Origin: an uncultured Latescibacterota bacterium
Lineage (GTDB): Bacteria > Latescibacterota > UBA2968
DNA length: 64,000 nucleotides
NCBI GenBank assembly: GCA_951812755.1
Contig: OX638329.1
Span: 5,355,563-5,419,562, forward strand
Direction of reading: 5' to 3'
In this document: positions 1,765 through 34,349 of the stretch, piece after piece
Position numbering within the stretch: the first letter of the stretch is position 1
How the letters are laid out: the number at the start of each line of letters is the position of its first letter
Translations under genes and position numbers: made by a program
The notes under the pieces: model-generated
What the model was told of the DNA's origin: nothing
Database searches by the model: none
What the model saw: only the letters and a program-made list of their open reading frames with translations

Positions 1765-1781
1765 GTAAAAAGGAAAAAACC

Positions 1782-2537: not shown

Positions 2538-2540
2538 AAA

Positions 2541-3947: not shown

Positions 3948-3974
3948 AGAGAAAATAGAAATTAGAGGTACCGA

Positions 3975-20832: not shown

Positions 20833-21228
20833 ATGTTGATCTCAATTGACCATCACAATGGCATACCCGTTTTTCGTCAGATCATCGACCAGGTGAAATT
20901 TCACGTAGTCAGCGGGCTACTCGCGCCGGGTGATGAACTGCCCTCGACCCGTGCATTATCGGGACAACTGGGACTCAACCCAATGACAGTGAGCAAAGCG
21001 TACAGCTTATTGGAAGCAGAGGGATTGGTAGAGCGGCGGCGCGGACGACCCTTAACCGTAAAACCCTTACGAGATCAGACCGTACACGCCGAAAAACTGG
21101 CACAACTCAAACCACAACTCACACAATTGGCAACAATGGTTCGGCAGTTGGGGGTTGATCGGGCGGAAGTCGTAGATCTTTTTCTCTCCATCTTAGATAC
21201 CCTGGAGGAAGACAATGATGGCACATGA
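20833..21228 (+). CDS. GntR-family transcriptional regulator (short, YtrA-like)
   Basis: 131 aa with the N-terminal winged HTH motif LPSTRALSGQLGLNPMTVSKAYSLLEAEGLVERRRG. Confidence 0.85.
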   Translation: MLISIDHHNGIPVFRQIIDQVKFHVVSGLLAPGDELPSTRALSGQLGLNPMTVSKAYSLLEAEGLVERRRGRPLTVKPLRDQTVHAEKLAQLKPQLTQLATMVRQLGVDRAEVVDLFLSILDTLEEDNDGT

Positions 21229-22108
21229 CCAGACATCTGTATTTGAAGCCACATCACTGACCAAAAAATTCGATGACATCATAGCTCTCAATTCCGTAAC
21301 ACTCTCTCTTGGGGCGCATCGCGTAATTGGATTGATCGGACGCAATGGCGGCGGCAAAACCACCTTAATCCAGCACATGATCGGCCTGTATTTGCCCACA
21401 GAGGGAACGTGTAAAACACTGGGACGCACATGCGATCAATTGGGGGCAAACGAACTTTCGCGCATAGGCGTGGTACACCAGGAAAATCGCTTTTTTGAAT
21501 GGATGACCGTCAAACAGCATCTGCACTACGTGTCTTCATTTTACGAGGTCTGGGACCGCGACCTGGAAGCGCATCTGCTGCGCGAACTCGAACTGGAAAC
21601 ATCTGCACGCGTGGGCAACCTGTCTTCGGGTAACATGCAAAAATTGGGAATCATTCTGGCAGTATGTCATCATCCCGAGTTATTGATCTTAGATGAGCCG
21701 GTCAGTGGCCTGGACCCCATTGCCCGAGAGACACTGTTGAAATTTCTAATGACACTCCTGGCTGAAGACCAAAACACAATCGTGATCTCCTCGCACATTC
21801 TGCGAGACATCGAAAAAATAGTAGATTGGGTCGTATGCCTCGACGAAGGTGTGGTCAAAGCCGACAAGTCCCTGGACGATCTGCACCAGACCTACGCAAA
21901 GTGGACAGTCACAGGAAACAACCTGCCCCAGCAATTTTCCGAACCTTATATCCTGTCGCAAACAGTGAACGGAGTACAGGCACAATTGATCGTCAACCAG
22001 ACACTGGGCAATGCAGATCAATTCAAACGGACTTATCAAGCTGATATCACCAGTCAGTCTCTGAACCTCGACCAGCTATTTCCCATCCTGATTCGGGAGG
22101 GTGCGTAA
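21215..22108 (+). CDS. ABC transporter ATP-binding protein
   Basis: 297 aa. Walker A GRNGGGKTT, signature LSSGNMQK and Walker B LLILDEP. Confidence 0.9.
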   Translation: MMAHDQTSVFEATSLTKKFDDIIALNSVTLSLGAHRVIGLIGRNGGGKTTLIQHMIGLYLPTEGTCKTLGRTCDQLGANELSRIGVVHQENRFFEWMTVKQHLHYVSSFYEVWDRDLEAHLLRELELETSARVGNLSSGNMQKLGIILAVCHHPELLILDEPVSGLDPIARETLLKFLMTLLAEDQNTIVISSHILRDIEKIVDWVVCLDEGVVKADKSLDDLHQTYAKWTVTGNNLPQQFSEPYILSQTVNGVQAQLIVNQTLGNADQFKRTYQADITSQSLNLDQLFPILIREGA

Positions 22109-23592
22109 TGGGTATTCTTCCGTTCTTCACATTTTTGCGAAGCCCTGTTCACATTATCATCTCATTTTTTGCATGTCTGTTACTCGCCCATGTCTCGTGG
22201 ACTGCCGACAGAGATCAGTTCTTTGTGTTTCTCGTATTTCTGCTATTCTTCTTCAGTGGATTTTGGGGCTATGCTATCGGCGGTATTGTAGCGGAGAACC
22301 AGCATCGGATACTCACATGGACCCTGCCGTATTTTCGCAAGCGTCTGCTGATCTGGTCAATAATTGTCGGACTATTTTCCGTTGTAGTGTGGACGGCAGC
22401 GCTGACGTTTGCACCCCTCAATGCATCCTGGTCAACAATCTTGCTAATAAACTTGGGCTTTTATTGTTTCGGATTTGTCTGTACAGCAGGTTGGGATTTT
22501 GGTGTTTATCATTCTATGGCGATCCAGGCATGTCAGACCATATTAATGTTTTTATTTCTCATATTGGCTTTTTTTTGGCAAGAGGTGCTCGCCTTTGGAG
22601 AGCAACAAAAATTGGGGTTGGCTCTCATCGCATTCGCCATCACAATTGCGGCTTATTATTTTTCGTTTAAGCAGACAACTTTTCGGAGAAAGCCTCTTTA
22701 CTTGCTTTGGTCACTGCGCTCGGTTTTTTATCCTCATATCTGGGAGATGTGGAAAAGGGATACAATGAAGAGGCGAAGGCCGAGTACCAGGGTATGGCAT
22801 CTTGATCACATCGGTACAGGCATCTTCAATTGGCTACGTGCGGGCCGGTATGAAAATAGTGGTGGCAAGCTATGGCTATGGCTGCTCCCCGGGTTTAGTG
22901 CAGCATTGGCAATGGTGTTCTATTTCATTGGCATGATGACGAATGGATTCGGGATATTGGGTCGGTCTCCTTACGATTTTGAGACCGTATTGAAAACGAT
23001 TTATCACATGACCTTTTATTTCGACCAGTTGGACTCTAAAATCGCCATCAATATATCTCTTTCAGCGTTTTTCGGCCTTTGGGCGTATGTGACGTATATT
23101 TGGAGTCATCCTTTTTTCTTAAAAAAAGGGTATGTGTATCCGCTTTCTCGCACCCAGCGGATGTGGATTTGGTATTGTGGTTTTCTGGTGCAAAATATTT
23201 CTTTTTTTGCAACATCTATTCTGGTGTTGGGTGTTCTGGGCATCCTGGCGGGAGCGAAGATCGGATTTGTGTCTGAAGGGAATATTTCCTTGAGAATACT
23301 TTGTGTCTTTGGGTGGGCAGTGGTTCTTTGGCCGATGTTTCAGTGGCTACAAGTCAAATATCACCTATATGAATTTCCAAGAACGCGGCGACAAATATGG
23401 GGGATGGCTTTTCTGTTCTTGATCATGATTTTGGCTTGTGGAATCGCTGGTTTTGCTGCCCTGATGCGTAATCTATACCCCGACCTATCACTGACCTTTG
23501 AAGTGCCGATCCTTTTTGTCTGTTTTATTCTCTTACAATGGTTCCTGTTAGCCCGGCTTAAACGGTATTACGCCACACAGGATCTGGTTTAG
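22108..23592 (+). CDS. Polytopic membrane protein (putative ABC-2-type permease partner of the upstream ATPase)
   Basis: 494 aa, at least 10 predicted TM segments, translationally coupled to the ATPase (the ATG overlaps its stop). About 70% identical to the paralog at 24813-26279. Confidence 0.6.
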   Translation: MGILPFFTFLRSPVHIIISFFACLLLAHVSWTADRDQFFVFLVFLLFFFSGFWGYAIGGIVAENQHRILTWTLPYFRKRLLIWSIIVGLFSVVVWTAALTFAPLNASWSTILLINLGFYCFGFVCTAGWDFGVYHSMAIQACQTILMFLFLILAFFWQEVLAFGEQQKLGLALIAFAITIAAYYFSFKQTTFRRKPLYLLWSLRSVFYPHIWEMWKRDTMKRRRPSTRVWHLDHIGTGIFNWLRAGRYENSGGKLWLWLLPGFSAALAMVFYFIGMMTNGFGILGRSPYDFETVLKTIYHMTFYFDQLDSKIAINISLSAFFGLWAYVTYIWSHPFFLKKGYVYPLSRTQRMWIWYCGFLVQNISFFATSILVLGVLGILAGAKIGFVSEGNISLRILCVFGWAVVLWPMFQWLQVKYHLYEFPRTRRQIWGMAFLFLIMILACGIAGFAALMRNLYPDLSLTFEVPILFVCFILLQWFLLARLKRYYATQDLV

Positions 23593-23600
23593 CAACCAAA

Positions 23601-23607
23601 TTAAGAA
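23601..23607. repeat. Target-site duplication TTAAGAA, left copy (transposon family B, copy 1)
   Basis: An identical 7-mer flanks the element on the right at 23855-23861. Confidence 0.7.
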
Positions 23608-23854
23608 CTGACGTTACGCATAGGTAGAATATAATGGGCCTGTCATTCTGAGCCTTTCGGCTACGCTCAAGATAAACTCCGCGCAGCGGAGTCGAAGGAG
23701 CGGGGTACAACTGGCCGGTGAACGAGCCTGAAAAGCGGCTCGTTGTACACCATCCTCAGGCTAGTTCATCTCTTACCAACACAGGTGGAACAGATGCTTC
23801 GGCTCCGTTTCACTCCGCTCAGCATGACAAAAACCCAAACCTGCGTAACATCAG
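23608..23854 (+). mobile_element. Miniature inverted-repeat transposable element (MITE-like), family B copy 1, 247 bp
   Basis: 13-bp terminal inverted repeats (CTGACGTTACGCA … TGCGTAACATCAG) flanked by a 7-bp direct repeat TTAAGAA. A second copy with different flanks lies at 59989-60211. It has internal hairpins and no ORF of meaningful size. Confidence 0.8.
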
Positions 23855-23871
23855 TTAAGAAGGAAAAAGAG

Positions 23872-24711
23872 ATGGCATATCCAAATCTGAAGCAGTCTAT
23901 TTGGCTGCTGGTATTATTGGTCCTTATTAGCGCTGGTTTGGGGATACCTGTTGCGATCCTGGGAACGATTATTGACCAGCCGTTGCACAAAAGTCCTTAT
24001 GCGCTCTGGCCATTGACACTGGTGAGTTTTGTTTTGGTCGTACACTATGTTTTGCGTCGAACCAATCGGACCTGGGCTTCGTGGTCTGATATCATGCCCA
24101 TAAAAGCCATTTCGTGGCAATTGCTACTGCCACTTGTGGTATCTATCCTTGGATTGTTGATCGTCTCTCTGGAATTGGGAAAAGTGATGATGTCTTTGGC
24201 CCCAACGCCCGAGGTAGTGAAAGATACACTCCGCGGGTTGGTCGGCAAAAAAACCTCTTATTGGTTGGCCTTTTACGGCGCGGTGATTCAAACACCTGTC
24301 ATAGAAGAGGCACTTTTTAGAGGTATTATTGTGGGTGGTTTGTTGGCGTATTGGTCAAAGTATAAGGCTGCTATTTGGTCGGCAATTTTGTTTGGCATAT
24401 ATCACCTGAACCCAGCGCAATTTCCCGTGGCCTTCATATTGGGGCTTGTATTCGCATGGTGGATTATTCAAACGGGATCTTTATTACCTTGTATCCTGGG
24501 ACACGCATTGAACAATTTTCTGGCTATTACCCTGGCACGATCGGGAATACCGGGCTTTAAAAATCCAAAAGCTCTGATCTTTCTGCCGTGGTGGGTGGTC
24601 GTGTGTGCCGTACTATTGGCCGCGATTGGGTTGTGGTGGTTCTATCAAGTAGCAAAGCGCGAAGAAACAGATCTGCTTAAAGCGGAAGTTGAACCCGAGA
24701 GACATTGTTGA
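23872..24711 (+). CDS. CPBP-family (CAAX protease/Abi-type) intramembrane metalloprotease
   Basis: EEALFRG, FGxxH and HALNN motifs. The true start is most likely ATG 23872 (MAYPNLK, SD aaggaaaaagag). The track ORF's 5' extension to 23743 lies inside the transposon. Confidence 0.8.
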   Translation: MAYPNLKQSIWLLVLLVLISAGLGIPVAILGTIIDQPLHKSPYALWPLTLVSFVLVVHYVLRRTNRTWASWSDIMPIKAISWQLLLPLVVSILGLLIVSLELGKVMMSLAPTPEVVKDTLRGLVGKKTSYWLAFYGAVIQTPVIEEALFRGIIVGGLLAYWSKYKAAIWSAILFGIYHLNPAQFPVAFILGLVFAWWIIQTGSLLPCILGHALNNFLAITLARSGIPGFKNPKALIFLPWWVVVCAVLLAAIGLWWFYQVAKREETDLLKAEVEPERHC

Positions 24712-24812
24712 AATTTCTAATGACACTTTTGGCTGAGGATGAAAACACAACCATGACATCATGCACTAAACCTCGACCAGCTATTCCCCATCCTGATACG
24801 GGAGGACATGTA
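24690..24812 (+). pseudogene. Remnant of a duplicated ABC ATPase gene (two segments homologous to 21727-21790 and 22049-22110, joined by an internal deletion)
   Basis: …ETLLKFLMTLLAED(E/Q)NT… followed by …LNLDQLFPILIREG… and then the permease ATG, mirroring the ATPase-permease junction at 22108. Confidence 0.75.
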
Positions 24813-26279
24813 ATGGGTATTCTTCCCTTTTTCACATTTTTGCGAAGCCCTGTTTACATTATCATCGCATTTTTTGCATATCTGTTGCTCGCTCACGTCT
24901 GGATGTCTTCCCAAGCAGATCGGATCTCTGTCTTCGTTTTGTTTTTCTTTATTGAATTTTGGGGCGGGACTATCGGCAGTATGGTAGGAGAGAACCAGTA
25001 TCGGATGCTCACATGGACCCTGCCACATTTTCGCAAGCGTCTGATGATGTGGTCGGCAATAGTCGGACTATTTTCCATTGTAGCCTGGACAGATGCGCTA
25101 ACTTATGCACCTCTCAATGCGTCCTGGTCAACGATTTTGCTGTTGAATCTGGGCCTCTATTGTATCGGATTTGCCTTTTCAGGAGGTTGGAGTTTTGGTA
25201 TCCAGCACCCCGGGTTGGCTTCTGTGTGCCGGGGCCTCATCGTGTTTCTGGGACTGGCATCAGCCTATTTTTGGCAAGAGGTGCTCGCTTTTGGAGAGCA
25301 ACAAAAGTTGGGGTTGGCTCTCATCGCATTCGCCATCGCAATTGGAACTTATCATTTCGCCTTTAACCAGACAACTTTTCGGAGGAAGCCATTCTCTTTG
25401 GTTCTTCCACTGCGCTTAACCCTTTTTCCCCAAACCCGGGAGTTTTGGGAAAGGAATGCAATGAACAGGCGAAAGCCGAGTACCAGAATATGGCATCTCG
25501 ATCACGTCGGTACAGGCATCGTCAATTGGCTGCGTGCCGGTCAGTATGAAAATTCTGGTCTGGGTGGGTGGAGATGGCCACTTTCCGCGTTTACTGCAGT
25601 ATCAGCAATGGTGTTTTTTTTTCTTGGCATGATAACGTCTATGTTCGGGTTGTCGGATCGATCTCCGTACGATTTTGAGACCGTCTTGAAAATGATTTAT
25701 CATATGATTTTTTATTTTAACCAGTTGGACTCCAAGGTCACCGGGGATATATTCGCTGCCGTATTTTTCGGCATTTGTATGTATATTTTTATTTCTCCTA
25801 TTTCACTTAAAAAAGGGTACGTCTATCCGCTTTCTCGCACCCAGCGGATGTGGATTCGGTATAGCAGTTTGCTGGTGCAAAATATTTCTTTTTTTGCAGC
25901 GTCTATTCTGATATTGGGGGTTCTGGGCATCCTGGCGGGGGCAAAGATCGGGTTTGTGTCTGAAGGGGATATTTCCCTGAGAATACTCTGTGTCCTGGGG
26001 TGGTGGGTCGTTCTTTTACCGCTATTGCAGTGGTTGCAAGTCAAATATGACCTGTATGATTTTCAAAGAACGCGGCAACAGGTATGGGGGATGGCTTGTC
26101 TGATCCTGATCCTGATTTTGTCTCTTGGATTCACTGGTTTTACCAGTCTGATGCGTGTCCGCTATCCCGATTTGATGCTGACCTATGAAGCGCCGATCCT
26201 TTTTCTCTCTTTTATTCTGTTGCAATGGTTTCTATTGAATCGGCTCAAACGGTATTATGCCACACAGGACCTGATTTAG
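24813..26279 (+). CDS. Polytopic membrane protein, paralog of 22108-23592
   Basis: 488 aa from ATG 24813. Colinear with the upstream permease at about 70% identity. The ORF-track extension to 24705 corresponds to the ATPase remnant. Confidence 0.6.
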   Translation: MGILPFFTFLRSPVYIIIAFFAYLLLAHVWMSSQADRISVFVLFFFIEFWGGTIGSMVGENQYRMLTWTLPHFRKRLMMWSAIVGLFSIVAWTDALTYAPLNASWSTILLLNLGLYCIGFAFSGGWSFGIQHPGLASVCRGLIVFLGLASAYFWQEVLAFGEQQKLGLALIAFAIAIGTYHFAFNQTTFRRKPFSLVLPLRLTLFPQTREFWERNAMNRRKPSTRIWHLDHVGTGIVNWLRAGQYENSGLGGWRWPLSAFTAVSAMVFFFLGMITSMFGLSDRSPYDFETVLKMIYHMIFYFNQLDSKVTGDIFAAVFFGICMYIFISPISLKKGYVYPLSRTQRMWIRYSSLLVQNISFFAASILILGVLGILAGAKIGFVSEGDISLRILCVLGWWVVLLPLLQWLQVKYDLYDFQRTRQQVWGMACLILILILSLGFTGFTSLMRVRYPDLMLTYEAPILFLSFILLQWFLLNRLKRYYATQDLI

Positions 26280-26503
26280 TTTAGGTGGATTAATAAATCA
26301 ATCGGATGGTATAGTGATTGCAATGCGTTCAACTCGAATTTCGTAGGACAAAAGCACAATTTTTGCATGATTATGCATATATGCATTTGTTTTCTCATAG
26401 ATTTTTTAATTTTTTATACATGCTAATAGCGTTTAATATTTTGGTGCGGATTATCCATCCTTTTGCACACGTATGTATTTCTATACCTGAAAAAATAACG
26501 TGT

Positions 26504-29500
26504 ATGTTTGAAAACGGAACGATTCTCGACGAAAGATATCAAATCCAGACGCACCTGGGAACCGGGGGCATGGGCGAAGTCTATCGGGTTTTAGACCTGG
26601 ACCAAAACCAGGCGTGCGCGCTCAAAATTTTGAATACCATGGTGGATCACAAGGCGGTACATCGCCGTTTTCACAGAGAATTTCAAGTGTTGAACAGATT
26701 CCATCACCCGCGCCTGGTCCGCACATACACCTGGGGCTTTGCCGAAGATCGCCCTTATTTTACGATGGAATATTTACCCGGAAAGACATTGGAAAAAGTA
26801 ATTGCCGATCATGCGCTATTAGGGCAATTCCAGGCTTCGTACTTTTTTCCCCTGATGGAACAACTTGCCGAAGGATTGGCATATATCCACGCGCAGGGTG
26901 CGGTACATCGCGATCTCAAACCATCCAATATTATGGTATTGGAAACAGAAGAGGGGATCAAGATCACGATCCTGGATATGGGACTGGCGAAACTCCGACA
27001 TCTGCATAGTGCCTCCATTACGCAGACGGGCACAGCCATTGGCACGGCAGAATATATGTCACCAGAGCAAGGTAAGGGATTATGGGTAGATCATCGATCA
27101 GATTTGTACTCATTGGGCATAATTTTATACGAGATGCTCACGGGCACACCGCCTTTTTCGGGACAAAATCCCATATCTGTTATTATGAAGCACATTCGAG
27201 AGATACCGCCCTCAATGGGCGAAATCAATATCGCTGTTCCTGATGAGATACAACAAATTGTGTTGAAGTTGCTGGCAAAGGAGCCTGTTGATCGTTTTCA
27301 GTCCGCAGACGAAGTATTGCGTGCCTTACCATCGGAGTTTGTGCTACCGGATGACGAGCAGCGCGATGTGCATAGAAAAGTTATGCGGCCGCAATTTATC
27401 GGGCGCGAATCCGAAATGAAGACATTGCGCGCAATGTTGCAGGATGTACAGGCTGGCGAACAGCGCGTGATTCTAATCTCCGGTGAATCTGGTGTGGGAA
27501 AAACGAGATTGGTTGAAGAACTATTGGGCGATGCGCTAATCCATGACTTTCTGTGTTTGAAAAGCGCAGGCCAGGAAGAGGGTGGACAAATATACGGTGC
27601 GTTGATTGATGCTTTTCAAGGAACGACGGATTTGGTTAGAAGGGAAACAGACAAGTTTTCTGTTATGGAGCGTTGGTTGCAGTTATTAAAAAGTCTGCGA
27701 CAGAAACAGCCCATCGTGTTGTGTTTAGAAAATATTCAATGGCTTGACGAATTGACCCTGGAATTTTTGCAGTATGTATTACGCGATCCAGACCCGTGTC
27801 CGTTTTTGTTATGTCTGACCTGTCAATGGTCCAACCTGGAACCGCTTTCAGAGGAAATTAAAAATTTTATACACAGTAATGAATTTGCCGAGGCGACCCG
27901 GATTCAGTTGGAGAATCTACCGCGTAAAGAGATGGGGTATTTAGCAGCGTCGATGTTGGGGGAGCGATCCATACCTCGAGATGCATTGCAAACCCTGTTC
28001 AGAGAAACGGGTGGGCAACCCCTGTTTGTCGTAGAGGCTGTGAGGACACTGGTGAATGCCGATGTGGTTCGGCAGAATGTATTTGGCGATTGGCAGTGGG
28101 GAGAATTTCCCCAAACATTATTATCCGATGATATTTCAGAGATTTTGCACAGACGCATAGCTACCCTGCCTGCTGTGCAACAGCGAGTGCTGGAATACGC
28201 CTGTGTTTTTCTCAATGATTTTTCTTTTGACTTATTGGCTGCGGTTTGGCGCGGTGATGAGTTGGAATTGTTGGATGTGCTGGACGACCTGATTGCAGAA
28301 GGGCTTTTAGCCGCCTGTGGAGAGGCTGAAGATCGATATCGTTTTTCACAGGGTCTGTATCGGCGGGCAATTTACGATCGCATGCAAAATGTGCGGCGAC
28401 GGCTGTTGCATCGAGAAATTGGCAATGCTTTGGAAAAGATGGATGATGCAGAAGAATTGACAGAAGAATTGGCGGATCATTTTGCGGCGGCGAAAGAACA
28501 AGATAAAGCTATAAAATATACGCGTCTATCAGGCAAAAAAGCATTGGAGGTACAAGCGTATCGCCAGGCATTGAGACGGTTTGAGGCTGTGCGAGGCTGG
28601 ACATCAGATGACGCTTTTGAATCACCTGCAGATACCATCGTTTTTTTATGCGATTATGCAAACGTTTTACGCTGTTGTAGTCAGCACAATAGCGCACTGG
28701 AACTTTTAGACGAGGCAAAAGCGTTATTGCCCGATAATCGGAAAGATTTAAAGGCGCGTATTTTGTGGAATGAAGGCATTATTCACAGCGTACTTCAACA
28801 TGGGAAAGTAGCAGAAGAATATATGCTGGAGGCATTGCGATTTTACCGGGAATTGGGTGATCTCGACGGAGAAATTCAGGCGTTGGGGAGTTTGGCTCAT
28901 TTATGCGATGTGTCTGAGCGTCACGAAGAAGCGATTGCATATATGTGTCGAGAAATAGAGAAATATGCTGCTCTGGGAGAAGCCCAGAACAAGGCTATTG
29001 TACAAGTCCGAGAAGGTATGGTTGCATTGGTGGAATTTCGATTTGGGACGGCCAAAGTACACCTAAAAGCGGCTGTAAAAACATCTCAGAAATTGGGACT
29101 TGAACACCATCGCATTGGAGCACTCAATTTACTTTTAAGAGTTTATTTTTATTCAGGTGATCTCGACCAAGCAGAAGCCGTTTGCCACGAAGTCATTGGT
29201 GAGTGGCAGAAGCGAGGCATTGTGTATTGGGAGGCAATGAATTTTCTCCGGTTGGGAGAATTGGCTCTGGAACGCGATGGTTTTTCAGAAGCATTGGAAT
29301 ATGCCGAGACCTCAGCAGAGCGATTTTTGGAAACACCGCGAAGAGATTACGTCTATCGCGCTTATGCGATAGCAGCAACGGCTGCTGCGAGAATGGGAGA
29401 TACAGAGACAGCTCTTGAATGGGCAGAAAGAGCCAGTGAAGGTGTGCAACAAACATCGGGTATGTACACGGGCATATTGCCCCTGGTGTATTGTGGTATA

Positions 29501-31297
29501 GGTGTTGCTTTAGACAAAGCAGGGCGAATTGCTGAGGCTGAAGAGGCTTTTGAGCAGGCTATTGAATGCCGGGGAGAATCTAAAGGCGATCACTGGGCGC
29601 GTGCGCTGCTGATGGCTGGGGAGTTTTATCTCGAGCGCGATGATATGGCAAAAGCGCAAGCCCATCTCGAAGCGGCAAAACAGGCGTTTGGAGAAATGGA
29701 AATGTCCTATTTTTTGGAGAAAACACAGATGTTATTAAATCAATTATCTCGCGACAAAGATGGTCGCGGCAGAAATGCCGCACTTAGCTCTGAGATTTCA
29801 GTCGATACGTTGTCTGTTGATCGCTGGCGCTTGCTTTACGATGTGAGCAGGGAATTGACAACAGAGCGCGATGTCAAAGTGTTATTGGATCGAACTTTGG
29901 GTAACTTGTTGGTTGTCTATCCAGCAGAGCGAGTACTTATTGCGGTGAAAAATGAGACCCCAAAAAGCTTTGTGGTTGATGCGGTACGTTACCACAATGT
30001 AGAAGCAGATGATGCGGAAGCACTGAGCCGGGGTATTATTCGTCGGGTTATTGAAACAAATGAACCCGTTTTGAGCGTTGATGCTCAGACAGACGACAGG
30101 CTAAATCAATATCAAAGCGTGATGGACTACAATATTCGGTCTGTATTGTGCGTACCCCTATTTCATGTTAGCGAAGGTGTGATGGGTGCACTGTATGTGG
30201 ATCATCGCGGCATTGACAACGCATTTTCTGAAGCAGATCAGACGTTTTTACAGGCATTTGCGAATCTGGTGGGGGTGGCACTGGTCAATGCGAGAATGTA
30301 TGAACAATTAGAAGATAAAGCGCGATATTTGCAGCAAGAGGTCGAAAGACAGTACCAGCTTGACGACCTGGTCGGGCAAAGTGATGCTATGCAGACGATC
30401 TACTATCTTATCGAACGCGCTTCACAAAGTGATATACCCGTGCTTGTGCAGGGCGAAACAGGTACAGGCAAAGAATTGGCGGCGCGTGCCATACACTACA
30501 ATAGCAGACGCAAAGACCAGCCATTTTTGTCTCAAAATTGTGCCGCACTATCACCAGAGTTGTTGCAAAGTGAGTTGTTCGGACACAAAAAAGGGGCGTT
30601 TACTGGCGCGACAGCAAATCACACGGGGATTTTTGAAGCAGCCAATGGCGGTACGGTTTTTTTAGATGAAATCGCCGATGCTTCACCACAGTTGCAAAGG
30701 AGCTTGTTGCGGGTGTTGCAAGAGGGTGAGATTCGGCGCGTGGGAGAAACAGAGGATCGCGCAGTGGATGTACGCATTATTGCAGCGACCAATCAAGACT
30801 TAAAAAAAGAAGTAGAAAACAGATCCTTCCGCGAAGATTTGTATTACCGATTGCATGTGATTCAGATCAATATGCCGCCTTTGCGAGAACGCATTGAAGA
30901 TGTGCCATTATTGGCTGAACATTTGCTCATTCGGGCAAAAGAAGATGCAAACAAGTCGGTTGGGGGACTGACAGTAGGTGCGATAAAGGTGCTTGTAAGT
31001 TACAACTGGCCTGGCAATGTGCGCGAGTTGGAGAATGAGATTCGGCGTGCAATTGCATTGGCAGAGCCAGATAGTGAAATTACGCCCGATTTGTTTTCAG
31101 AATCCATTGGGCACACAGTGTCAGATATCCCTGTCGAATCCCAGGGACGTTTACAAGACCGTGTTCAGGAGTATGAAAAACGAGTGATTCGAGACGCGCT
31201 CGAGAAATGTGTGGGCAATATTACGCATACGGCTAAAGAACTGGGAATAACGCGCGCTGGCCTGCAGAAAAAGATCAATCGTTTGGGGTTGAGATAG
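26504..31297 (+). CDS. Giant sigma-54-dependent transcriptional activator fused to a Ser/Thr protein kinase. Domain order: kinase, P-loop NTPase, TPR repeats, GAF domain, sigma-54 AAA+ activator domain, Fis-type HTH
   Basis: Kinase motifs GTGGMGEVY, HRDLKPSN, DMG and SPE. P-loop GESGVGKTRL. TPR-like helical repeats. GAF region. sigma-54 module GETGTGKELAARAIH, ESELFGHKKGAFTGA and GTVFLDEI. C-terminal HTH TAKELGITRAGLQKKI. Probable start ATG at about 26504 (MFENGTILDERYQ); the track ORF starts at 26318. Confidence 0.8.
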   Translation: MFENGTILDERYQIQTHLGTGGMGEVYRVLDLDQNQACALKILNTMVDHKAVHRRFHREFQVLNRFHHPRLVRTYTWGFAEDRPYFTMEYLPGKTLEKVIADHALLGQFQASYFFPLMEQLAEGLAYIHAQGAVHRDLKPSNIMVLETEEGIKITILDMGLAKLRHLHSASITQTGTAIGTAEYMSPEQGKGLWVDHRSDLYSLGIILYEMLTGTPPFSGQNPISVIMKHIREIPPSMGEINIAVPDEIQQIVLKLLAKEPVDRFQSADEVLRALPSEFVLPDDEQRDVHRKVMRPQFIGRESEMKTLRAMLQDVQAGEQRVILISGESGVGKTRLVEELLGDALIHDFLCLKSAGQEEGGQIYGALIDAFQGTTDLVRRETDKFSVMERWLQLLKSLRQKQPIVLCLENIQWLDELTLEFLQYVLRDPDPCPFLLCLTCQWSNLEPLSEEIKNFIHSNEFAEATRIQLENLPRKEMGYLAASMLGERSIPRDALQTLFRETGGQPLFVVEAVRTLVNADVVRQNVFGDWQWGEFPQTLLSDDISEILHRRIATLPAVQQRVLEYACVFLNDFSFDLLAAVWRGDELELLDVLDDLIAEGLLAACGEAEDRYRFSQGLYRRAIYDRMQNVRRRLLHREIGNALEKMDDAEELTEELADHFAAAKEQDKAIKYTRLSGKKALEVQAYRQALRRFEAVRGWTSDDAFESPADTIVFLCDYANVLRCCSQHNSALELLDEAKALLPDNRKDLKARILWNEGIIHSVLQHGKVAEEYMLEALRFYRELGDLDGEIQALGSLAHLCDVSERHEEAIAYMCREIEKYAALGEAQNKAIVQVREGMVALVEFRFGTAKVHLKAAVKTSQKLGLEHHRIGALNLLLRVYFYSGDLDQAEAVCHEVIGEWQKRGIVYWEAMNFLRLGELALERDGFSEALEYAETSAERFLETPRRDYVYRAYAIAATAAARMGDTETALEWAERASEGVQQTSGMYTGILPLVYCGIGVALDKAGRIAEAEEAFEQAIECRGESKGDHWARALLMAGEFYLERDDMAKAQAHLEAAKQAFGEMEMSYFLEKTQMLLNQLSRDKDGRGRNAALSSEISVDTLSVDRWRLLYDVSRELTTERDVKVLLDRTLGNLLVVYPAERVLIAVKNETPKSFVVDAVRYHNVEADDAEALSRGIIRRVIETNEPVLSVDAQTDDRLNQYQSVMDYNIRSVLCVPLFHVSEGVMGALYVDHRGIDNAFSEADQTFLQAFANLVGVALVNARMYEQLEDKARYLQQEVERQYQLDDLVGQSDAMQTIYYLIERASQSDIPVLVQGETGTGKELAARAIHYNSRRKDQPFLSQNCAALSPELLQSELFGHKKGAFTGATANHTGIFEAANGGTVFLDEIADASPQLQRSLLRVLQEGEIRRVGETEDRAVDVRIIAATNQDLKKEVENRSFREDLYYRLHVIQINMPPLRERIEDVPLLAEHLLIRAKEDANKSVGGLTVGAIKVLVSYNWPGNVRELENEIRRAIALAEPDSEITPDLFSESIGHTVSDIPVESQGRLQDRVQEYEKRVIRDALEKCVGNITHTAKELGITRAGLQKKINRLGLR

Positions 31298-31308
31298 GCG
31301 GTGAACAG

Positions 31309-31347
31309 GTGCATCCAGATGTATGCAGTGCATCCTGGCGGATGCAC
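31309..31347. promoter_or_regulatory. Upstream activator sequence: perfect 20-bp palindrome GTGCATCC-TGGC-GGATGCAC (31328-31347), overlapped by a degenerate third copy (31309-31328)
   Basis: Read directly from the sequence. About 200 bp upstream of the sigma-54 promoter. Confidence 0.7.
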
Positions 31348-31408
31348 TTTGTCTATCCTTATATAATTCAGATAGTTGTGCTTATTTTCTTTAAATAGGC
31401 GATCATAA

Positions 31409-31428
31409 GTGCATCCTATCGGATGCAC
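31409..31428. promoter_or_regulatory. Upstream activator sequence: second perfect 20-bp palindrome GTGCATCC-TATC-GGATGCAC
   Basis: Has the same half-sites as 31328-31347 and lies 81 bp downstream of it. An AT-rich tract follows, plausibly bendable or IHF-binding. Confidence 0.7.
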
Positions 31429-31537
31429 TTACACCTGAATCTCGCAGGTGTAGCACAAATAATCCTTAATTTTTATCTCTTTGTTTTTCAAGCACTTGAG
31501 AATTTTCATGTGCTTTTTTTTTGCTGAGACGATTTTG

Positions 31538-31552
31538 GGCACGGATCTTGCA
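31538..31552 (+). promoter_or_regulatory. sigma-54 (RpoN) promoter GGCACG-N4-TTGCA
   Basis: Exact match to the -24 GG / -12 GC consensus (tGGGCACGgatcTTGCAtc) with correct spacing, about 55 nt upstream of the small peptide ATG. Confidence 0.75.
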
Positions 31553-31608
31553 TCATAAAAAGGGCAAACCGTTATGGCACAGGATTTTTCCATTATAAGG
31601 AGGATAAC

Positions 31609-31788
31609 ATGGCAACACGACGCAAATTGACTTTGGTCAACGGTGCAATAGATCAAGAAGGTAGCATTCTTATGTATCAGACTGTAAAGAGTGTAGAGGT
31701 TCACTGCGAGCCTTATACTTTTGCTGTTCCCCTCCTTCCCTTCCCCGATAATGATCCCGATTGGGACGATTTTGATCAGTCTGAGTAA
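31609..31788 (+). CDS. Small peptide (59 aa), candidate RiPP precursor (MATRRKLTLVNGAIDQEGSILMYQTVKSVEVHCEPYTFAVPLLPFPDNDPDWDDFDQSE)
   Basis: Missing from the track (below 60 aa). Excellent SD AAGGAGG 6 nt upstream of the ATG. Sits between a sigma-54 promoter and a radical-SAM/SPASM gene. Basic N-terminus, single Cys, Pro-rich and acidic C-terminus. Confidence 0.7.
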   Translation: MATRRKLTLVNGAIDQEGSILMYQTVKSVEVHCEPYTFAVPLLPFPDNDPDWDDFDQSE

Positions 31789-31816
31789 ATCATCTCTATT
31801 TTAAGGAGTACTTGAC

Positions 31817-33253
31817 ATGCTATGCATTCAGAAATGCGAAATGCATCTTTTTCAAACGGAAGAACAAAAACAGCCGATTGTCTATCAGACTGAGACAGGT
31901 CTGTTTTTTACACTGGATACCCTTTTCCAGGCGATTTTAGCGTGTTGCGAGGGGCTGTCCGATTCTCAGGTTGTTCAGAGGTTGACCGATCAATACGAGG
32001 CAGAGGAAGTTGTCGAGGCTATCGAGGAATTGGCTCAGGTGGGTTTGATTTCGGATGGTGCTCTACCTGTGGTATCCAATGTGCCGACAACAGAAGGGGT
32101 GGCAGCCTGCGGCGTATCGCAGACTGATCGTTTGCAGGTGTCGTTGCACGTTTCGCATACGTGCAATATTCAGTGTGCTTATTGCTTTGCCCACGGCGGG
32201 GATTACGGCGGTAAGGCGATGCTGATGCAACCGGACGTTGCCGAGCAAGCGATACGCTGGATCATCTCCGAGGCTCAGGTGTTCGGACGGTGCCAGATCG
32301 ATTTTTTTGGCGGGGAACCGCTTCTGAATTTTCCGCTGATGCAGAAGCTGGTGCCGTTTGCCAAATCCCTGGGAGCGCGATTGGGTGTGCAGGTTGGTTT
32401 TGGCATTGTGACCAATGGCACCTTGTTGACCGACGAGATGAAGCAGTTTTTGGTTAATAAAAAGTTTCAGATTAAGGTCAGCCTGGATGGTGGACGTAAG
32501 ACACAGGACCGCATTCGCAAGTTTCACAATGGTTCTGGTACTTATGATGTTGTGGCAAAGAATGTAAAGAAATTGACTGCTGAGGCACCTGAGCGCGTGT
32601 ATTTGCAGGCTGTTATGACAGCTTATGACCTGAACGAGGATCAGATTGCCGATGAGTTGCGTTCGCTGGGTACTGAAAATGCGCTCATCGGTCCGGCGGT
32701 TGTCTCCCCCGATAAACCTTATGCTGTTCGAGAAGAACACATACCCGCTTTGAAGCAACAAATTCACAAGCGGAGCCGGCACGCGCTCAAAGCTATTCTA
32801 AATGGTGAAGAGGGTGAAGATGAAGAGTTTGATCCGAGGATTCAAAAACTTTTGACGCGCCAAAAATCTTGTCACGGATGCCTCGGCGGTAAGCAGTATT
32901 TGGCAATTGCAGCGGACGGGTCGATTTATTTTTGCTCGAGCTTAGCCGACGCGCCCGAGTTTAAGATGGGTGATGTGTTTGCGGGTATTGATCGCGAAAA
33001 GCAGCAGTATTTTGACGCGCAGTTCAATGTGAATAATCGTCCTGAGTGCAAAACGTGCTGGGCGCGCAATTTGTGTGGTGGCGGATGTCTTTGGGAGGCA
33101 CGGACAACAACGGATGATCCAATGTCTCCGAACCCGGTTTATTGTGAACAGACGCGCTATCGCTATGAACTGGCAATGGAGATGTGTATGGAGATAGCAG
33201 AAACGGATGCGTCTTTGTTGCAGCGACGATATGATCTGGAAGTGGTATCATAA
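31817..33253 (+). CDS. Radical SAM/SPASM-domain peptide-modifying enzyme with an N-terminal RRE-like extension (sactipeptide/ranthipeptide-maturase-like)
   Basis: CNIQCAYC (CxxxCxxC) radical-SAM cluster motif. C-terminal Cys-rich SPASM region (CHGC…FCSS…CKTCWARNLCGGGC). A roughly 110-aa N-terminal domain resembling the RiPP recognition elements of sactisynthases. SD aaggag upstream. Confidence 0.8.
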   Translation: MLCIQKCEMHLFQTEEQKQPIVYQTETGLFFTLDTLFQAILACCEGLSDSQVVQRLTDQYEAEEVVEAIEELAQVGLISDGALPVVSNVPTTEGVAACGVSQTDRLQVSLHVSHTCNIQCAYCFAHGGDYGGKAMLMQPDVAEQAIRWIISEAQVFGRCQIDFFGGEPLLNFPLMQKLVPFAKSLGARLGVQVGFGIVTNGTLLTDEMKQFLVNKKFQIKVSLDGGRKTQDRIRKFHNGSGTYDVVAKNVKKLTAEAPERVYLQAVMTAYDLNEDQIADELRSLGTENALIGPAVVSPDKPYAVREEHIPALKQQIHKRSRHALKAILNGEEGEDEEFDPRIQKLLTRQKSCHGCLGGKQYLAIAADGSIYFCSSLADAPEFKMGDVFAGIDREKQQYFDAQFNVNNRPECKTCWARNLCGGGCLWEARTTTDDPMSPNPVYCEQTRYRYELAMEMCMEIAETDASLLQRRYDLEVVS

Positions 33254-33287: not shown

Positions 33288-33345
33288 ACGGCATCCAAAT
33301 AGGGATGATAACGCCCTGTTAGATGCCGTTTATTTTGCTTTTTGG
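33288..33345 (+). terminator. Probable intrinsic terminator after the radical-SAM gene
   Basis: Long hairpin acggcatcc…ggatg…gatgccgt followed by ttattttgcttttt. The stem contains GCATCC/GGATG half-site-like sequences. Confidence 0.5.
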
Positions 33346-34349
33346 GTGGAATTCTCGTGGAAGAAATATATCAATCAAAAAAATCCGGCCTCGATAAATG
33401 GCCGCTCATTGGACAGCACCCCATACTCTTAGACGTGCAAAAGCGTGCGTACCGCGTGGCGAATAGCGAATTACCCGTCAACATCAGTGGAGAGACTGGC
33501 ACGGGCAAGGAATTGCTCGCCCGTTATATCCACGGCATTAGCCACCGCAACAGAGGACCATTTGTAACCGTTGACTGCGGCCTCCTCTCTTCTGAAATGG
33601 CGCGCAGCGAGTTATTTGGACATGTTCGAGGTGCTTTTACTGGCGCCAGCCAAACGCGCACCGGACTGGTTGAATCTGCCCACGGCGGTACGCTATTCTT
33701 CGATGAAGTAGGCGAATTGCCAGCCAATCTTCAGTTGCAATTGCTACGCCTGGTACAGGAACAGGAATTTCGCCGCATAGGCGAAGTATCCATGCGCCGG
33801 TCCGATGTGCGCCTGATCACTGCGACACACTGCAACTTGAAAAAAATGATGCGAACAGGAACTTTCCGAGAAGACCTCTATTACCGCTTAACTGTCGTAC
33901 CCCTGTATTTGCCACCCTTGCGGAAGCGACTGAGCGATTTGCCACTTTTGATCACGCATTTTTGCAAAAGTATGAAAGGATACACGCGCGCGTTTTCCCC
34001 CGAAGTAATTCAAAGGATGTCGCATTATGCCTGGCCTGGCAATGTTCGGGAACTACAAAACGAAGTCGCCCGATTGATGGTCATGAGCGAAGGGAAAATT
34101 ATCCGAGTATCCGACCTGCACCCTCGCATTCGGGGATCCAAACCCGAGGTTGATGTATTTGACCTCCCATTTAAGGAAGCCAGGCAACTGGCAAACAGCC
34201 GATTTATGCGGGAGTATCTCGACAGAGCTTTGCAGCGAACACAGGGCAATGTAACCCAGGCAGCGCAACAATGCGGGATTGGCCGACAGTACTTCCAGTT
34301 GCGTATGTCCGAGTACGGTCTGAAGTCGGCATTTTACAAGAAAAAATAA
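33342..34349 (+). CDS. sigma-54-dependent transcriptional activator lacking an N-terminal sensory/receiver domain (PspF/HrpR-like AAA+ plus HTH only)
   Basis: 335 aa. GETGTGKELLARYIHG, ELFGHVRGAFTGA, a GAFTGA loop, C-terminal Fis-type HTH. Non-ATG start (TTG 33342 or GTG about 33357). Confidence 0.8.
   Translation: MGGILVEEIYQSKKSGLDKWPLIGQHPILLDVQKRAYRVANSELPVNISGETGTGKELLARYIHGISHRNRGPFVTVDCGLLSSEMARSELFGHVRGAFTGASQTRTGLVESAHGGTLFFDEVGELPANLQLQLLRLVQEQEFRRIGEVSMRRSDVRLITATHCNLKKMMRTGTFREDLYYRLTVVPLYLPPLRKRLSDLPLLITHFCKSMKGYTRAFSPEVIQRMSHYAWPGNVRELQNEVARLMVMSEGKIIRVSDLHPRIRGSKPEVDVFDLPFKEARQLANSRFMREYLDRALQRTQGNVTQAAQQCGIGRQYFQLRMSEYGLKSAFYKKK

What the first reader, a model, noticed from the sequence alone, without database searches (positions are those of the whole stretch)
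26504..31297. A roughly 1600-aa regulator fusing a Ser/Thr kinase, NTPase, TPR, GAF and sigma-54 activator domains
One polypeptide appears to combine a Hanks-type Ser/Thr kinase domain (GxGxxG, HRDLKPSN, DMG, SPE), a P-loop NTPase/STAND-like module, extensive TPR-like repeats, a GAF domain, a complete sigma-54 AAA+ activator module (GAFTGA-containing) and a C-terminal Fis-type HTH. Enhancer-binding proteins normally take a receiver, GAF or PAS sensor. A covalently attached eukaryotic-like kinase implies signal integration by phosphorylation within the activator itself. The gene ends 12-30 bp before the palindromic sites that such an HTH would be expected to bind.
Basis: partly seen in the sequence, partly recalled or inferred. 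Interest (0 to 1): 0.75.

Follow-up and report, generated by a model that had tools for sequence, protein, structure and literature searches.

The report
Giant kinase-STAND sigma-54 activator
One intact 1,597-residue protein joins a Ser/Thr kinase, a STAND ATPase switch with a TPR sensor, a GAF domain and a sigma-54 activator. It most likely turns on the small-peptide/radical-SAM operon beside it, and the design is widespread in uncultivated bacteria but I found no study of it.

Summary
ATG 26504 to TAG 31297 is one uninterrupted gene of 1,597 aa. It encodes a Hanks kinase, a STAND NTPase, an arm plus TPR sensor, a GAF domain, a sigma-54 AAA+ module with GAFTGA, and a Fis-type HTH.

It is not an assembly artefact. 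More than 120 full-length homologues share the order at 80-88% identity, and every module is under purifying selection (dN/dS 0.13-0.30). All catalytic motifs are invariant.

At least three paralogues occur in one related genome. In all 17 loci examined the gene is followed by the same layout: three dyad sites, an intrinsic terminator and a GGCAC-N5-TTGC promoter. In 15 of them a 53-64 aa peptide gene and a radical SAM/SPASM gene come next.

The HTH recognition helix falls into three classes, and each class pairs with its own dyad half-site (17 of 17 loci). This points to the large protein as the binder of the palindromes.

The same fusion occurs in MAGs labelled Acidobacteriota, Planctomycetota, Zixibacteria and Verrucomicrobiae. 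It is auto-annotated there, and I found no paper on it.

The role of the kinase remains inference. I rate this a new variant of a known kind, of moderate to high interest.

The parts
26504..31297 (+). CDS of the 1,597-aa kinase-STAND-TPR-GAF-sigma54 activator
   Evidence: Uninterrupted ORF. Conserved N-terminus fixes the start. More than 120 full-length homologues.
26537..27319 (+). Hanks-type Ser/Thr kinase domain (aa 12-272). It is an RD kinase with activation-loop TQT.
   Evidence: Pfam Pkinase 1.6e-50. K41, E59, HRDLKPSN, D158 and SPE are invariant in 120 of 120. dN/dS 0.18.
27371..28345 (+). STAND nucleotide-binding oligomerisation domain (NBD-HD-WHD, aa 290-614). Walker A is 327-334. Walker B is LCLEN 406-410.
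   Evidence: AAA_16 3e-22. AF2 model pLDDT 89.4. Best PDB fold match is the STAND protein 6MFV at E 3.7e-15, followed by Apaf-1 and MalT.
28346..29833 (+). Arm plus TPR superhelix, the presumed sensor (aa 615-1110)
   Evidence: TPR_12 1.6e-15 and TPR_MalT 2.5e-9. All-helical hairpin repeats in the model. LGN/Pins-like TPR matches. Fastest-evolving module, dN/dS 0.30.
29867..30283 (+). GAF domain (aa 1122-1260)
   Evidence: Pfam GAF 5.6e-13 and GAF_2 5.8e-13. The NifA-like alignment covers aa 1110-1555.
30368..31114 (+). Sigma-54 interaction AAA+ domain and lid (aa 1289-1537), with GAFTGA 1364-1369
   Evidence: PF00158 2.8e-74 and PF25601 9.5e-21. Walker A/B, GAFTGA, sensor I and the R-finger region are invariant or nearly so.
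31169..31282 (+). Fis-type HTH (aa 1556-1593) with recognition helix TRAGLQKKINRL
   Evidence: PF02954 7e-11. Three helix classes (Q, H, Y) co-vary with the dyad half-sites.
31310..31327 (.). Enhancer dyad I, TGCATCCAGATGTATGCA
   Evidence: Same position in all related loci.
31329..31346 (.). Enhancer dyad II, TGCATCCTGGCGGATGCA
31410..31427 (.). Enhancer dyad III, TGCATCCTATCGGATGCA
31490..31522 (+). Intrinsic terminator of the regulator gene (AAGCACTTGAG-loop-CATGTGCTT plus T9)
   Evidence: RNA fold -10 kcal/mol here and -6 to -14 in 14 of 14 loci, always followed by a T-run.
31537..31552 (+). Sigma-54 type -24/-12 promoter, GGGCACGGATCTTGCA
   Evidence: GGCAC-N5-TTGC sits +236 to +244 after the stop in every locus.
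31609..31788 (+). 59-aa precursor-like peptide gene with RBS AAGGAGGA
   Evidence: Conserved leader MATRRKLTLINGxID, one invariant Cys, and a VPPLPFP plus poly-Asp tail in 13 loci.
31817..33253 (+). Radical SAM/SPASM peptide-maturase-like gene (478 aa)
   Evidence: Pfam Radical_SAM, Fer4_12 and SPASM. NCBIfam SCIFF, QhpD and nif11 maturase hits, all below cut-off. About 90% identical across loci.
33342..34349 (+). Short sensor-less EBP (335 aa). It is present only at this type of locus, and its link to the system is uncertain.
   Evidence: Sigma54_activat 1.3e-62 and HTH_8. Its HTH helix is different. It is absent from the H- and Y-class cassettes.

Best explanation
The gene encodes a soluble one-component sigma-54 activator. 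A NifA/NorR-like output (GAF, AAA+, Fis-type HTH) is placed under the control of a MalT/PknK-like STAND switch (kinase, NOD, arm and TPR sensor). The HTH binds three dyads that start 13 nt after its own stop codon. From there the AAA+ ring activates the sigma-54 promoter about 120-230 bp downstream, which drives a small precursor-like peptide and a radical SAM/SPASM enzyme. The gene order, the motifs, the conserved enhancer/terminator/promoter layout and the co-variation of HTH with DNA sites are shown. The rest is inferred. A ligand bound by the fast-evolving TPR sensor would open the STAND NOD and allow ADP-to-ATP exchange. STAND multimerisation would then bring the AAA+ domains together into the active hexamer on the three enhancer sites, and would bring the RD-type kinase domains together for trans-autophosphorylation on the conserved activation-loop TQT. 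The kinase would then either stabilise the 'on' state or relieve GAF repression, or it would act as a second output toward other proteins. Paralogues with different recognition helices and matching dyads form insulated regulator-promoter pairs within one genome.
For: Architecture and intact motifs. Full-length conservation in more than 120 clusters. Purifying selection on each module, with the kinase catalytic core at 0.10. STAND fold: AF2 pLDDT 89.4 and Foldseek best hit 6MFV (a STAND with a TPR sensor), then Apaf-1 and MalT. Three clustered dyads beyond chance. A -24/-12 element at a fixed distance in 17 of 17 loci, with a terminator just before it. HTH classes pair with half-sites in 17 of 17 loci: Q (TRAGLQKKI) with TGCATCC, H (TRVGLHKKI) with TGTATCC...TTTACA/TATACA, and Y (ARISLYRKI) with TGTATCA...GATACA. 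All three classes occur in one genome (L002, L010, L011). The variable residues align with the Fis/NtrC DNA-contact positions (my own knowledge). The short EBP is absent from most cassettes. Literature: STANDs multimerise on inducer binding and carry effector domains at either end, and bacterial STANDs are mainly transcription activators and Ser/Thr kinases (PMC6468293, PMC4381067). NorR, a GAF-EBP, needs three enhancer sites (PMC2831303). No TM segment.
Against: There are no biochemical data. The kinase substrate, the ligand and the oligomeric state are unknown. The three HTH/site classes amount to only about two independent evolutionary changes, so the co-variation is suggestive and not statistical proof. 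rpoN was not seen, because only 64 kb is available. This copy has N instead of D at the second acidic Walker B position of the STAND (6 of 120 copies do), so its nucleotide cycle may be atypical. TPR divergence does not track peptide divergence (Mantel r 0.16, p 0.14), so a peptide-autoinduction version of the model is unsupported. Of three distant homologues, only one shows the same downstream palindrome plus -24/-12 layout.
Confidence: 0.6

Rival explanations
1. The palindromes are not enhancers of the large protein. They are either binding sites of the short 335-aa EBP encoded after the radical SAM gene, or simple RNA or terminator hairpins of the regulator transcript.
For: The short EBP also has an HTH_8 domain. 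The scan flags dyad II (31327-31348) as terminator-like. Palindromes preserved through paired changes would also fit a hairpin.
Against: The short EBP has an unrelated recognition helix, GRQYFQLRMSEY. It is missing from the H- and Y-class cassettes that keep the three dyads. The three dyads of a locus share one half-site sequence and keep the same asymmetric mismatch (GGATGCA versus GTATGCA), which a hairpin does not require. A canonical hairpin plus T-run terminator lies separately at 31490-31522 in all loci. The half-site class follows the large protein's helix in 17 of 17 loci.
Confidence: 0.1
2. The kinase domain is a non-catalytic scaffold (pseudokinase), or a relic that plays no part in controlling the activator.
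For: No substrate is known. DFG is DMG or DLG. STAND-TPR-GAF-EBP relatives without a kinase exist (about 10 of 149 clusters). 16 of 78 distant fusions have lost one of the K/D/N/D residues.
Against: In this family K41, E59, HRDLKPSN, D158, G160 and SPE are invariant in 120 of 120 copies, and the activation-loop T173/T181 are invariant. The catalytic core has the lowest dN/dS in the protein, 0.10. 62 of 78 distant fusions keep the catalytic tetrad.
Confidence: 0.12
3. The long ORF is an artefactual or recent fusion of two genes, a kinase-STAND gene and a GAF-EBP gene.
For: Two related loci have a broken frame: L003 has a 1-nt insertion in a G-run near aa 300, and L005 has a 7-nt deletion near aa 425.
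Against: The breaks are single indels at different places inside domains. They are not at a domain boundary and are not followed by a new start. The window copy and more than 120 homologues from independent assemblies, including closed chromosomes of about 6 Mb, are colinear over 100% of the length. The same fusion is found in several phyla.
Confidence: 0.02
4. It is part of an anti-phage or conflict system: a STAND/Avs-like sensor with a PD-T4-6-like kinase, next to a GajB-like UvrD helicase.
For: PADLOC gives strong hits of the kinase to PD-T4-6 models, of the EBP part to RtcR/PspF models and of the neighbouring helicase to GajB models. STAND NTPases are common in defence systems.
Against: The hits are generic domain homology, and no Avs or STAND defence model is among the best 25. 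The helicase is absent from most paralogue loci. Paralogues sit at conserved chromosomal positions across genomes (L011/L014/L018 and L012/L013). The output is a transcription activator with its own promoter.
Confidence: 0.05

Closest known systems
GAF-type bacterial enhancer-binding proteins (NifA, NorR, FhlA)
   Same: The C-terminal 490 aa run GAF, then AAA+ with GAFTGA, then a Fis-type HTH. They align end to end with the NifA and NorR models (1e-119 and 2e-109). Three enhancer sites lie upstream of a -24/-12 promoter, as at norVW (PMC2831303).
   Different: Scores are below the NifA (400.7 versus 528.85) and NorR (366.4 versus 476) equivalog cut-offs. About 1,100 extra N-terminal residues carry a kinase and a STAND switch. 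The target is a peptide/radical-SAM cassette, not nif or nor genes.
MalT / LAL-type STAND transcription activators, and PH0952 (PDB 6MFV)
   Same: A P-loop NOD (NBD-HD-WHD), an arm and a repeat sensor, with a DNA-binding effector at one end. The fold match is 6MFV at E 3.7e-15 and MalT 8BOB at 4.5e-9. The STAND logic of inducer-driven multimerisation is described in PMC6468293 and PMC4381067.
   Different: The effector is not a LuxR or ArsR HTH acting on sigma-70 polymerase. It is a complete sigma-54 AAA+ motor, so the polypeptide holds two different oligomerising ATPases. There is a second effector, the kinase, at the other end.
STAND Ser/Thr kinases such as Mycobacterium tuberculosis PknK
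   Same: An N-terminal Hanks kinase is followed by an AAA_16/MalT-like STAND module. PknK is cited as the kinase type of bacterial STAND (PMC4381067). JGI names one distant relative of this family 'PknK'.
   Different: From my own knowledge, PknK has no fused DNA-binding or sigma-54 module and acts on separate transcription factors. Here the transcription factor is in cis. No direct sequence comparison with PknK was made.
TOMM system kinase/cyclase fusion protein (NCBIfam TIGR03903)
   Same: A kinase plus a long STAND/TPR-like region, encoded beside a ribosomal-peptide (RiPP) cluster. The hit is 1.7e-88 over three stretches.
   Different: The score of 297.8 is far below the cut-off of 705.75. 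There is no cyclase domain. The output here is sigma-54 transcription, not a nucleotide second messenger.
Ser/Thr kinase to FHA-domain EBP signalling in Myxococcus (my own knowledge, not checked here)
   Same: Hanks-type phosphorylation feeds into sigma-54 activators.
   Different: There the kinase and the EBP are separate proteins coupled through an FHA domain. Here they are one chain, with no FHA domain and with a STAND module between them.

Membership tests
Bacterial enhancer-binding protein (sigma-54 activator) | AAA+ domain of the PF00158 type with Walker A/B, sensor I and arginine fingers | tested here: met
   PF00158 2.8e-74 (248.8 bits against a cut-off of 20.2). GETGTGKE, VFLDEI, RIIAATN and FREDLYYRL are invariant or nearly so in 120 homologues.
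Bacterial enhancer-binding protein (sigma-54 activator) | GAFTGA loop that contacts sigma-54 | tested here: met
   GAFTGA at aa 1364-1369, conserved in at least 118 of 120.
Bacterial enhancer-binding protein (sigma-54 activator) | C-terminal HTH with cognate upstream activator sites near a -24/-12 promoter | tested here: met
   HTH_8 7e-11. Three dyads and GGCAC-N5-TTGC are conserved in 17 loci. The helix and the sites co-vary.
Bacterial enhancer-binding protein (sigma-54 activator) | ATP-dependent open-complex formation with sigma-54 holoenzyme; rpoN present in the genome | not testable with these tools
   This needs biochemistry. rpoN is not in the 64-kb window, and the genome could not be scanned.
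NifA / NorR equivalogs (NCBIfam TIGR01817, NF003451) | Whole-protein score above the curated equivalog cut-off | tested here: not met
   NifA 400.7 below 528.85, and NorR 366.4 below 476.
Hanks-type (eukaryotic-like) Ser/Thr protein kinase | Pkinase fold with Gly-loop, VAIK Lys, alphaC Glu, HRD, catalytic Asn, DFG Asp and APE | tested here: met
   PF00069 172.4 bits against a cut-off of 31.7. All listed residues are invariant in 120 of 120; DFG reads D[ML]G.
Hanks-type (eukaryotic-like) Ser/Thr protein kinase | Phosphotransfer activity | not testable with these tools
   Only purifying selection (dN/dS 0.10-0.18) argues for activity.
STAND NTPase (MalT/PknK/PH0952-like) | P-loop NBD with Walker A and Walker B | tested here: inconclusive
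   AAA_16 80.3 bits against a cut-off of 32.6. Walker A GESGVGKT is intact. Walker B is hhhhEN in this copy, and hhhhED in 114 of 120.
STAND NTPase (MalT/PknK/PH0952-like) | NBD-HD-WHD core followed by an arm and a repeat sensor domain | tested here: met
   AF2 model of aa 290-1120: pLDDT 89.4, pTM 0.85. Foldseek best hit is 6MFV over 748 columns at E 3.7e-15, then Apaf-1, MalT, CED-4 and plant resistosomes.
STAND NTPase (MalT/PknK/PH0952-like) | Inducer- and nucleotide-dependent multimerisation | not testable with these tools
   Needs SEC-MALS or cryo-EM.
TOMM system kinase/cyclase fusion (TIGR03903) | Score above cut-off, and a cyclase homology domain | tested here: not met
   297.8 below 705.75. 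No cyclase domain in Pfam.
Known radical SAM/SPASM RiPP maturase families (for the neighbouring gene) | Score above the cut-off of a named NCBIfam maturase family | tested here: not met
   SCIFF 260.1 below 425, QhpD 254.2 below 453, nif11 rSAM 251.6 below 518.7, and PapB 230.6 below 340.

The most novel reading that the evidence does not exclude
This would be a previously undescribed class of self-contained signal-to-sigma-54 switch. Ligand-driven STAND multimerisation directly nucleates the EBP AAA+ hexamer on three enhancer dyads, while the fused kinase writes a phosphorylation 'memory' or a second output. In this lineage the switch has diversified into mutually insulated regulator/enhancer pairs (Q, H and Y specificities). 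Each pair controls its own copy of a new single-Cys, poly-Asp-tailed radical-SAM peptide cassette.
Probability: 0.3. Interest if true: 0.8.

Novelty: new variant of a known kind. Interest (0 to 1): 0.6.

Why it matters
From my own knowledge, textbook EBPs are gated by receiver, GAF, PAS, V4R, FHA or CARF modules. Here the gate is a whole STAND switch plus a Hanks kinase, so two different oligomerising ATPases and a kinase sit in one chain. That makes it a compact test case for how STAND assembly can be coupled to AAA+ ring assembly, and for how Ser/Thr phosphorylation meets sigma-54 control.

The locus is unusually tractable. The regulator, its three predicted sites, the terminator, the promoter and the target genes fit in about 7 kb. 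Natural paralogues supply a ready-made specificity series (Q, H or Y in the recognition helix against TGCAT or TGTAT dyads). Such orthogonal sigma-54 activator/promoter pairs could also be useful parts for synthetic circuits.

The cassette further points to an undescribed radical-SAM-modified peptide family. By gene content and some record names, the host lineage looks like uncultivated sponge-associated bacteria.

Tried and rejected
- **Metagenome contig scan.** The scan for more loci returned only one short fragment, so I obtained further loci by exact-protein look-ups instead.
- **Literature.** Searches for the kinase-EBP fusion found nothing relevant. The Pérez 2008 kinome paper is not held. 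The sponge RiPP preprint concerns other clusters.
- **Sequence search of PDB.** A search with the STAND/TPR part gave only a marginal LGN hit. The fold search was needed.
- **TPR sensing its own peptide.** The Mantel test of TPR against peptide distances gave r 0.16, p 0.14, so the idea is not supported.
- **Autoregulatory operator.** TGCAT motifs upstream of the regulator gene lie in a block conserved only among orthologous Q-type loci. In most of those the block reads as a TGTATAAT -10-like element, and there are no class-specific motifs upstream of the H or Y copies. I dropped the idea.
- **A second paralogue past the window end.** I suspected one just beyond the gamma-glutamyltranspeptidase gene at the window end, by analogy with L010. 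There is no DNA similarity.
- **Rfam.** A scan of 26200-31900 found nothing credible.
- **PADLOC.** It returned only generic domain hits.
- **Generalising the layout.** Of three distant homologues, only L021 shows the downstream enhancer/promoter layout.
Full report

The + strand carries one ORF from 26318 to 31297 with no internal stop. All related proteins begin MF[EK]xGTILD. DNA upstream of that methionine is unrelated between non-orthologous loci. ATG 26504 is therefore the start, and the product is 1,597 aa.

Pfam finds, in order:
- Pkinase, aa 12-272 (1.6e-50)
- AAA_16, aa 297-431 (3e-22)
- TPR_12/TPR_MalT, about aa 930-1080
- GAF, aa 1122-1260 (5.6e-13)
- Sigma54_activat, aa 1289-1455 (2.8e-74)
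- AAA_lid_14, aa 1461-1537
- HTH_8, aa 1556-1593 (7e-11)

NCBIfam aligns the last 490 residues end to end with NifA and NorR, but below their equivalog cut-offs. No segment is hydrophobic enough for a membrane helix.

**2. Is it an artefact, or a decayed kinase?**

A search of 5.8 billion proteins returned more than 120 clusters of full-length homologues at 80-88% identity, all with the same Pfam set. Several come from closed chromosomes of about 6 Mb.

Across these 120 sequences the following are invariant or nearly so:
- the kinase Gly-loop, K41, E59, HRDLKPSN, D158-x-G and SPE
- the STAND Walker A
- the EBP Walker A/B, GAFTGA, sensor I and the arginine-finger region

Twelve intact copies compared at the codon level give these dN/dS values:

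| Module | dN/dS |
|---|---|
| Kinase | 0.18 (0.10 in the catalytic core) |
| AAA_16 | 0.13 |
| TPR | 0.30 |
| GAF | 0.17 |
| EBP AAA+ | 0.18 |
| HTH | 0.23 |

Every module is maintained by selection. The TPR sensor and the HTH change fastest.

Two related loci are frameshifted: L003 by a 1-nt insertion in a G-run, and L005 by a 7-nt deletion. The breaks lie inside domains at different places. They look like decay or assembly error, not a natural two-gene form.

One peculiarity of the window copy is N410 at the second acidic position of the STAND Walker B. 114 of 120 homologues have D there.

**3. What is the middle of the protein?**

Sequence search of the PDB was uninformative. An AlphaFold2 model of residues 290-1120, built on 45 diverse homologues, is confident (pLDDT 89.4, pTM 0.85). 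It shows an alpha/beta P-loop domain, a helical domain, a winged-helix region and then about 24 helices in TPR-like hairpins.

Foldseek against the PDB puts the STAND protein PH0952 first (6MFV, 748 aligned columns, E 3.7e-15). Apaf-1, MalT (8BOB), CED-4 and plant resistosomes follow. The repeat part resembles LGN/Pins TPRs.

The module is therefore a STAND NOD-arm-sensor. In such proteins inducer binding opens the NOD, ADP is exchanged for ATP and the protein multimerises. Effector domains sit at either end, and bacterial STANDs are mainly transcription activators (MalT) or Ser/Thr kinases (PknK) (PMC6468293, PMC4381067). This protein has an effector at both ends.

**4. What does it control?**

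Three dyads TGCATCC-N4-GKATGCA start 13, 32 and 113 nt after the stop codon. They are the only three matches in the window (expected 0.32).

Downstream come, in order:
- a hairpin plus T9 terminator, 31490-31522
- GGGCACGGATCTTGCA, a -24/-12 element, 31537-31552
- a strong RBS and a 59-aa ORF, 31609-31788
- a radical SAM/SPASM gene, 31817-33253

The radical SAM enzyme's best named relatives are the SCIFF, QhpD and nif11 maturases. All score below cut-off.

I collected 16 further close loci, giving 17 with the window. All 17 keep the same layout: dyads at +12, +31 to +34 and +110 to +115, and GGCAC-N5-TTGC at +236 to +244. The terminator was folded in 14 of them and is present in all 14.

In 15 of the 17 the next genes are a 53-64 aa peptide and the radical SAM enzyme, which is about 90% identical across loci. 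In two loci the cargo differs (L010 and L013), but the control region is the same.

Thirteen of these peptides were aligned. All share a leader (MATRRKLTLINGxID.EG), one invariant Cys, six or seven variable residues, and then VPPLPFP with a poly-Asp/aromatic tail.

**5. Who binds the dyads?**

Among the 120 homologues the HTH recognition helix comes in three forms: TRAGLQKKI (Q), TRVGLHKKI (H) and [AV]R[IAV]SLYRK[IM] (Y).

| Class | Loci | Dyad form |
|---|---|---|
| Q | window, L001, L002, L004, L005, L006 | GTGCATCC...G[GT]ATGCAC |
| H | L007, L011, L014, L016, L018 | GTGTATCC...GTTTACAC or ATATACAC |
| Y | L003, L010, L012, L013, L015, L017 | TGTATCA...GATACA or GAAACA |

The match holds in 17 of 17 loci. 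All three classes coexist in one 5.94-Mb genome (L002, L010 and L011).

The variable residues lie where Fis/NtrC-type helices touch bases. That statement rests on my own knowledge.

The short 335-aa EBP after the radical SAM gene has an unrelated helix and is absent from the H and Y cassettes. It is therefore a poor candidate for the binder.

The classes reflect only about two independent changes, so this is good circumstantial evidence and not proof.

**6. How it most likely works**

*Shown:* a soluble protein with an intact kinase, a STAND switch, GAF and an EBP motor. It has its own enhancer triplet and a sigma-54 promoter driving the adjacent cassette.

*Inferred:* the TPR sensor binds an unknown ligand. 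The STAND NOD then multimerises and raises the local concentration of the AAA+ domains, so that a hexamer forms on the three dyads. NorR, a GAF-EBP, likewise needs three sites (PMC2831303).

The kinase is of the RD type with a conserved activation-loop TQT. It would be trans-autophosphorylated in the same assembly. It could then lock the active state or relieve GAF repression, or it could phosphorylate other targets.

I could not separate these roles. A test of TPR/peptide co-evolution was negative (Mantel r 0.16, p 0.14), so peptide autoinduction is unsupported.

**7. How widespread and how new?**

Residues 398-1597 were scored against 1.84 billion cluster representatives. Of the 149 best non-self clusters, 78 carry an N-terminal kinase and a C-terminal EBP, at 1,570-2,180 aa (one 786-aa exception). 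Of those 78, 62 keep the K/D/N/D catalytic residues, and most are non-RD.

A profile of 50 such proteins retrieves the same Pfam set from MAGs labelled Acidobacteriota (Polarisedimenticolia, Thermoanaerobaculia), Planctomycetota, Zixibacteria, Verrucomicrobiae and Cryosericum. Automatic names there include 'sigma 54-interacting transcriptional regulator', 'Nif-specific regulatory protein' and 'PknK'.

Of three distant loci inspected, one (L021) repeats the palindrome plus -24/-12 layout.

The architecture is therefore already in databases and is not rare. I found no paper describing it, within the limits of the held library.

I class it as a new variant of a known kind: an EBP whose regulatory module is a kinase-bearing STAND switch.

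**8. Rivals**

I considered four rivals and rate each unlikely, for the reasons given in the rival section:
- fusion artefact
- pseudokinase
- dyads as hairpins or as sites of the short EBP
- a defence-system reading

**9. Verdict**

The enhancer prediction is strengthened, the phosphorylation mechanism is untested, and the implied rarity is overstated.

Interest is 0.6. The locus offers a compact, testable system with natural specificity variants, and it points to an undescribed radical-SAM peptide family. Public records label the lineage inconsistently as Latescibacterota, Poribacteria or Gemmatimonadetes.

Noticed in passing
window 31609-33253; L001-L018: The target cassette looks like an undescribed RiPP family. 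The precursors are 53-64 aa, with a conserved leader MATRRKLTLINGxID, a single invariant Cys, 6-7 variable residues, then VPPLPFP and a poly-Asp/Trp/Phe acidic tail. They sit beside a radical SAM/SPASM enzyme that scores below the cut-off of every named NCBIfam maturase family.
   Followed up: partly
window 33342-34349: A short EBP of 335 aa has no sensor domain (PspF-like) and an HTH helix, GRQYFQLRMSEY, unlike that of the large protein. It occurs only at the window-type locus, followed by a UvrD-like gene in three of the four related loci. Its target is unknown.
   Followed up: partly
window 47915-47930 (-) and about 47965-48035: A perfect sigma-54 consensus, TGGCACAGAAATTGCT, lies upstream of a MacB_PCD/FtsX permease gene (45359-47815, minus strand). 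Three GGACAC-containing repeats lie further upstream. In L013 a Y-class paralogue of the large regulator sits in front of TPR and MacB/FtsX genes.
   Followed up: partly
window 27719-27733 (aa 406-410): The STAND Walker B of this copy reads LCLEN. 114 of 120 homologues have D at the last position; only P0009, P0012, P0015, P0023 and P0031 share the N. This could mean slowed nucleotide hydrolysis.
   Followed up: partly
L003 about 6895-6905; L005 about 7270-7290: Two related copies are frameshifted (a 1-nt insertion in a G-run, and a 7-nt deletion). This suggests occasional pseudogenisation, or consensus errors, in this multi-copy family.
   Followed up: yes
window 31352-31378: An AT-rich block, CTATCCTTATATAATTCAGATAGTT, lies between dyads II and III and is conserved in all close loci. 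It may be an IHF-like bending site. I did not test this.
   Followed up: no
window 20833-26279: The upstream unit is separate. It holds a GntR/YtrA-like regulator, an ABC ATPase, two paralogous 494- and 524-aa proteins with no family hit, and a CPBP/CAAX-type intramembrane protease. It is conserved only at the window-type locus, and it could be peptide export or immunity.
   Followed up: partly
window 34377-37655: A UvrD-like helicase carries an N-terminal extension of about 480 aa that matches the TIGR00375 family. Its PADLOC hits to GajB are generic. It is conserved after the short EBP in L001, L002 and L005.
   Followed up: no
13 loci (window, L001-L018): Peptide divergence is essentially uncorrelated with divergence of the regulator modules (Mantel r from -0.27 to 0.28). 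This suggests cassette reshuffling between regulators and peptides.
   Followed up: partly
L021 10230-10470: A distant homologue (JGI name 'PknK') is followed by a long inverted repeat, a perfect palindrome AAGTGGCACAGGTGTGCCACTT, and TGGCGC-N5-TTGCG before co-directional unknown ORFs. This is the same logic with a different sequence.
   Followed up: partly
window 196-5213, 48155-49066, 12122-13483: The window also holds two sulfatases, an alpha-L-fucosidase, an ankyrin-repeat protein and a HEAT-repeat protein. Related loci hold WD40 and Sel1 giants. From my own knowledge this content fits sponge-associated Poribacteria, while public records label the lineage Latescibacterota, Poribacteria or Gemmatimonadetes.
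   Followed up: no
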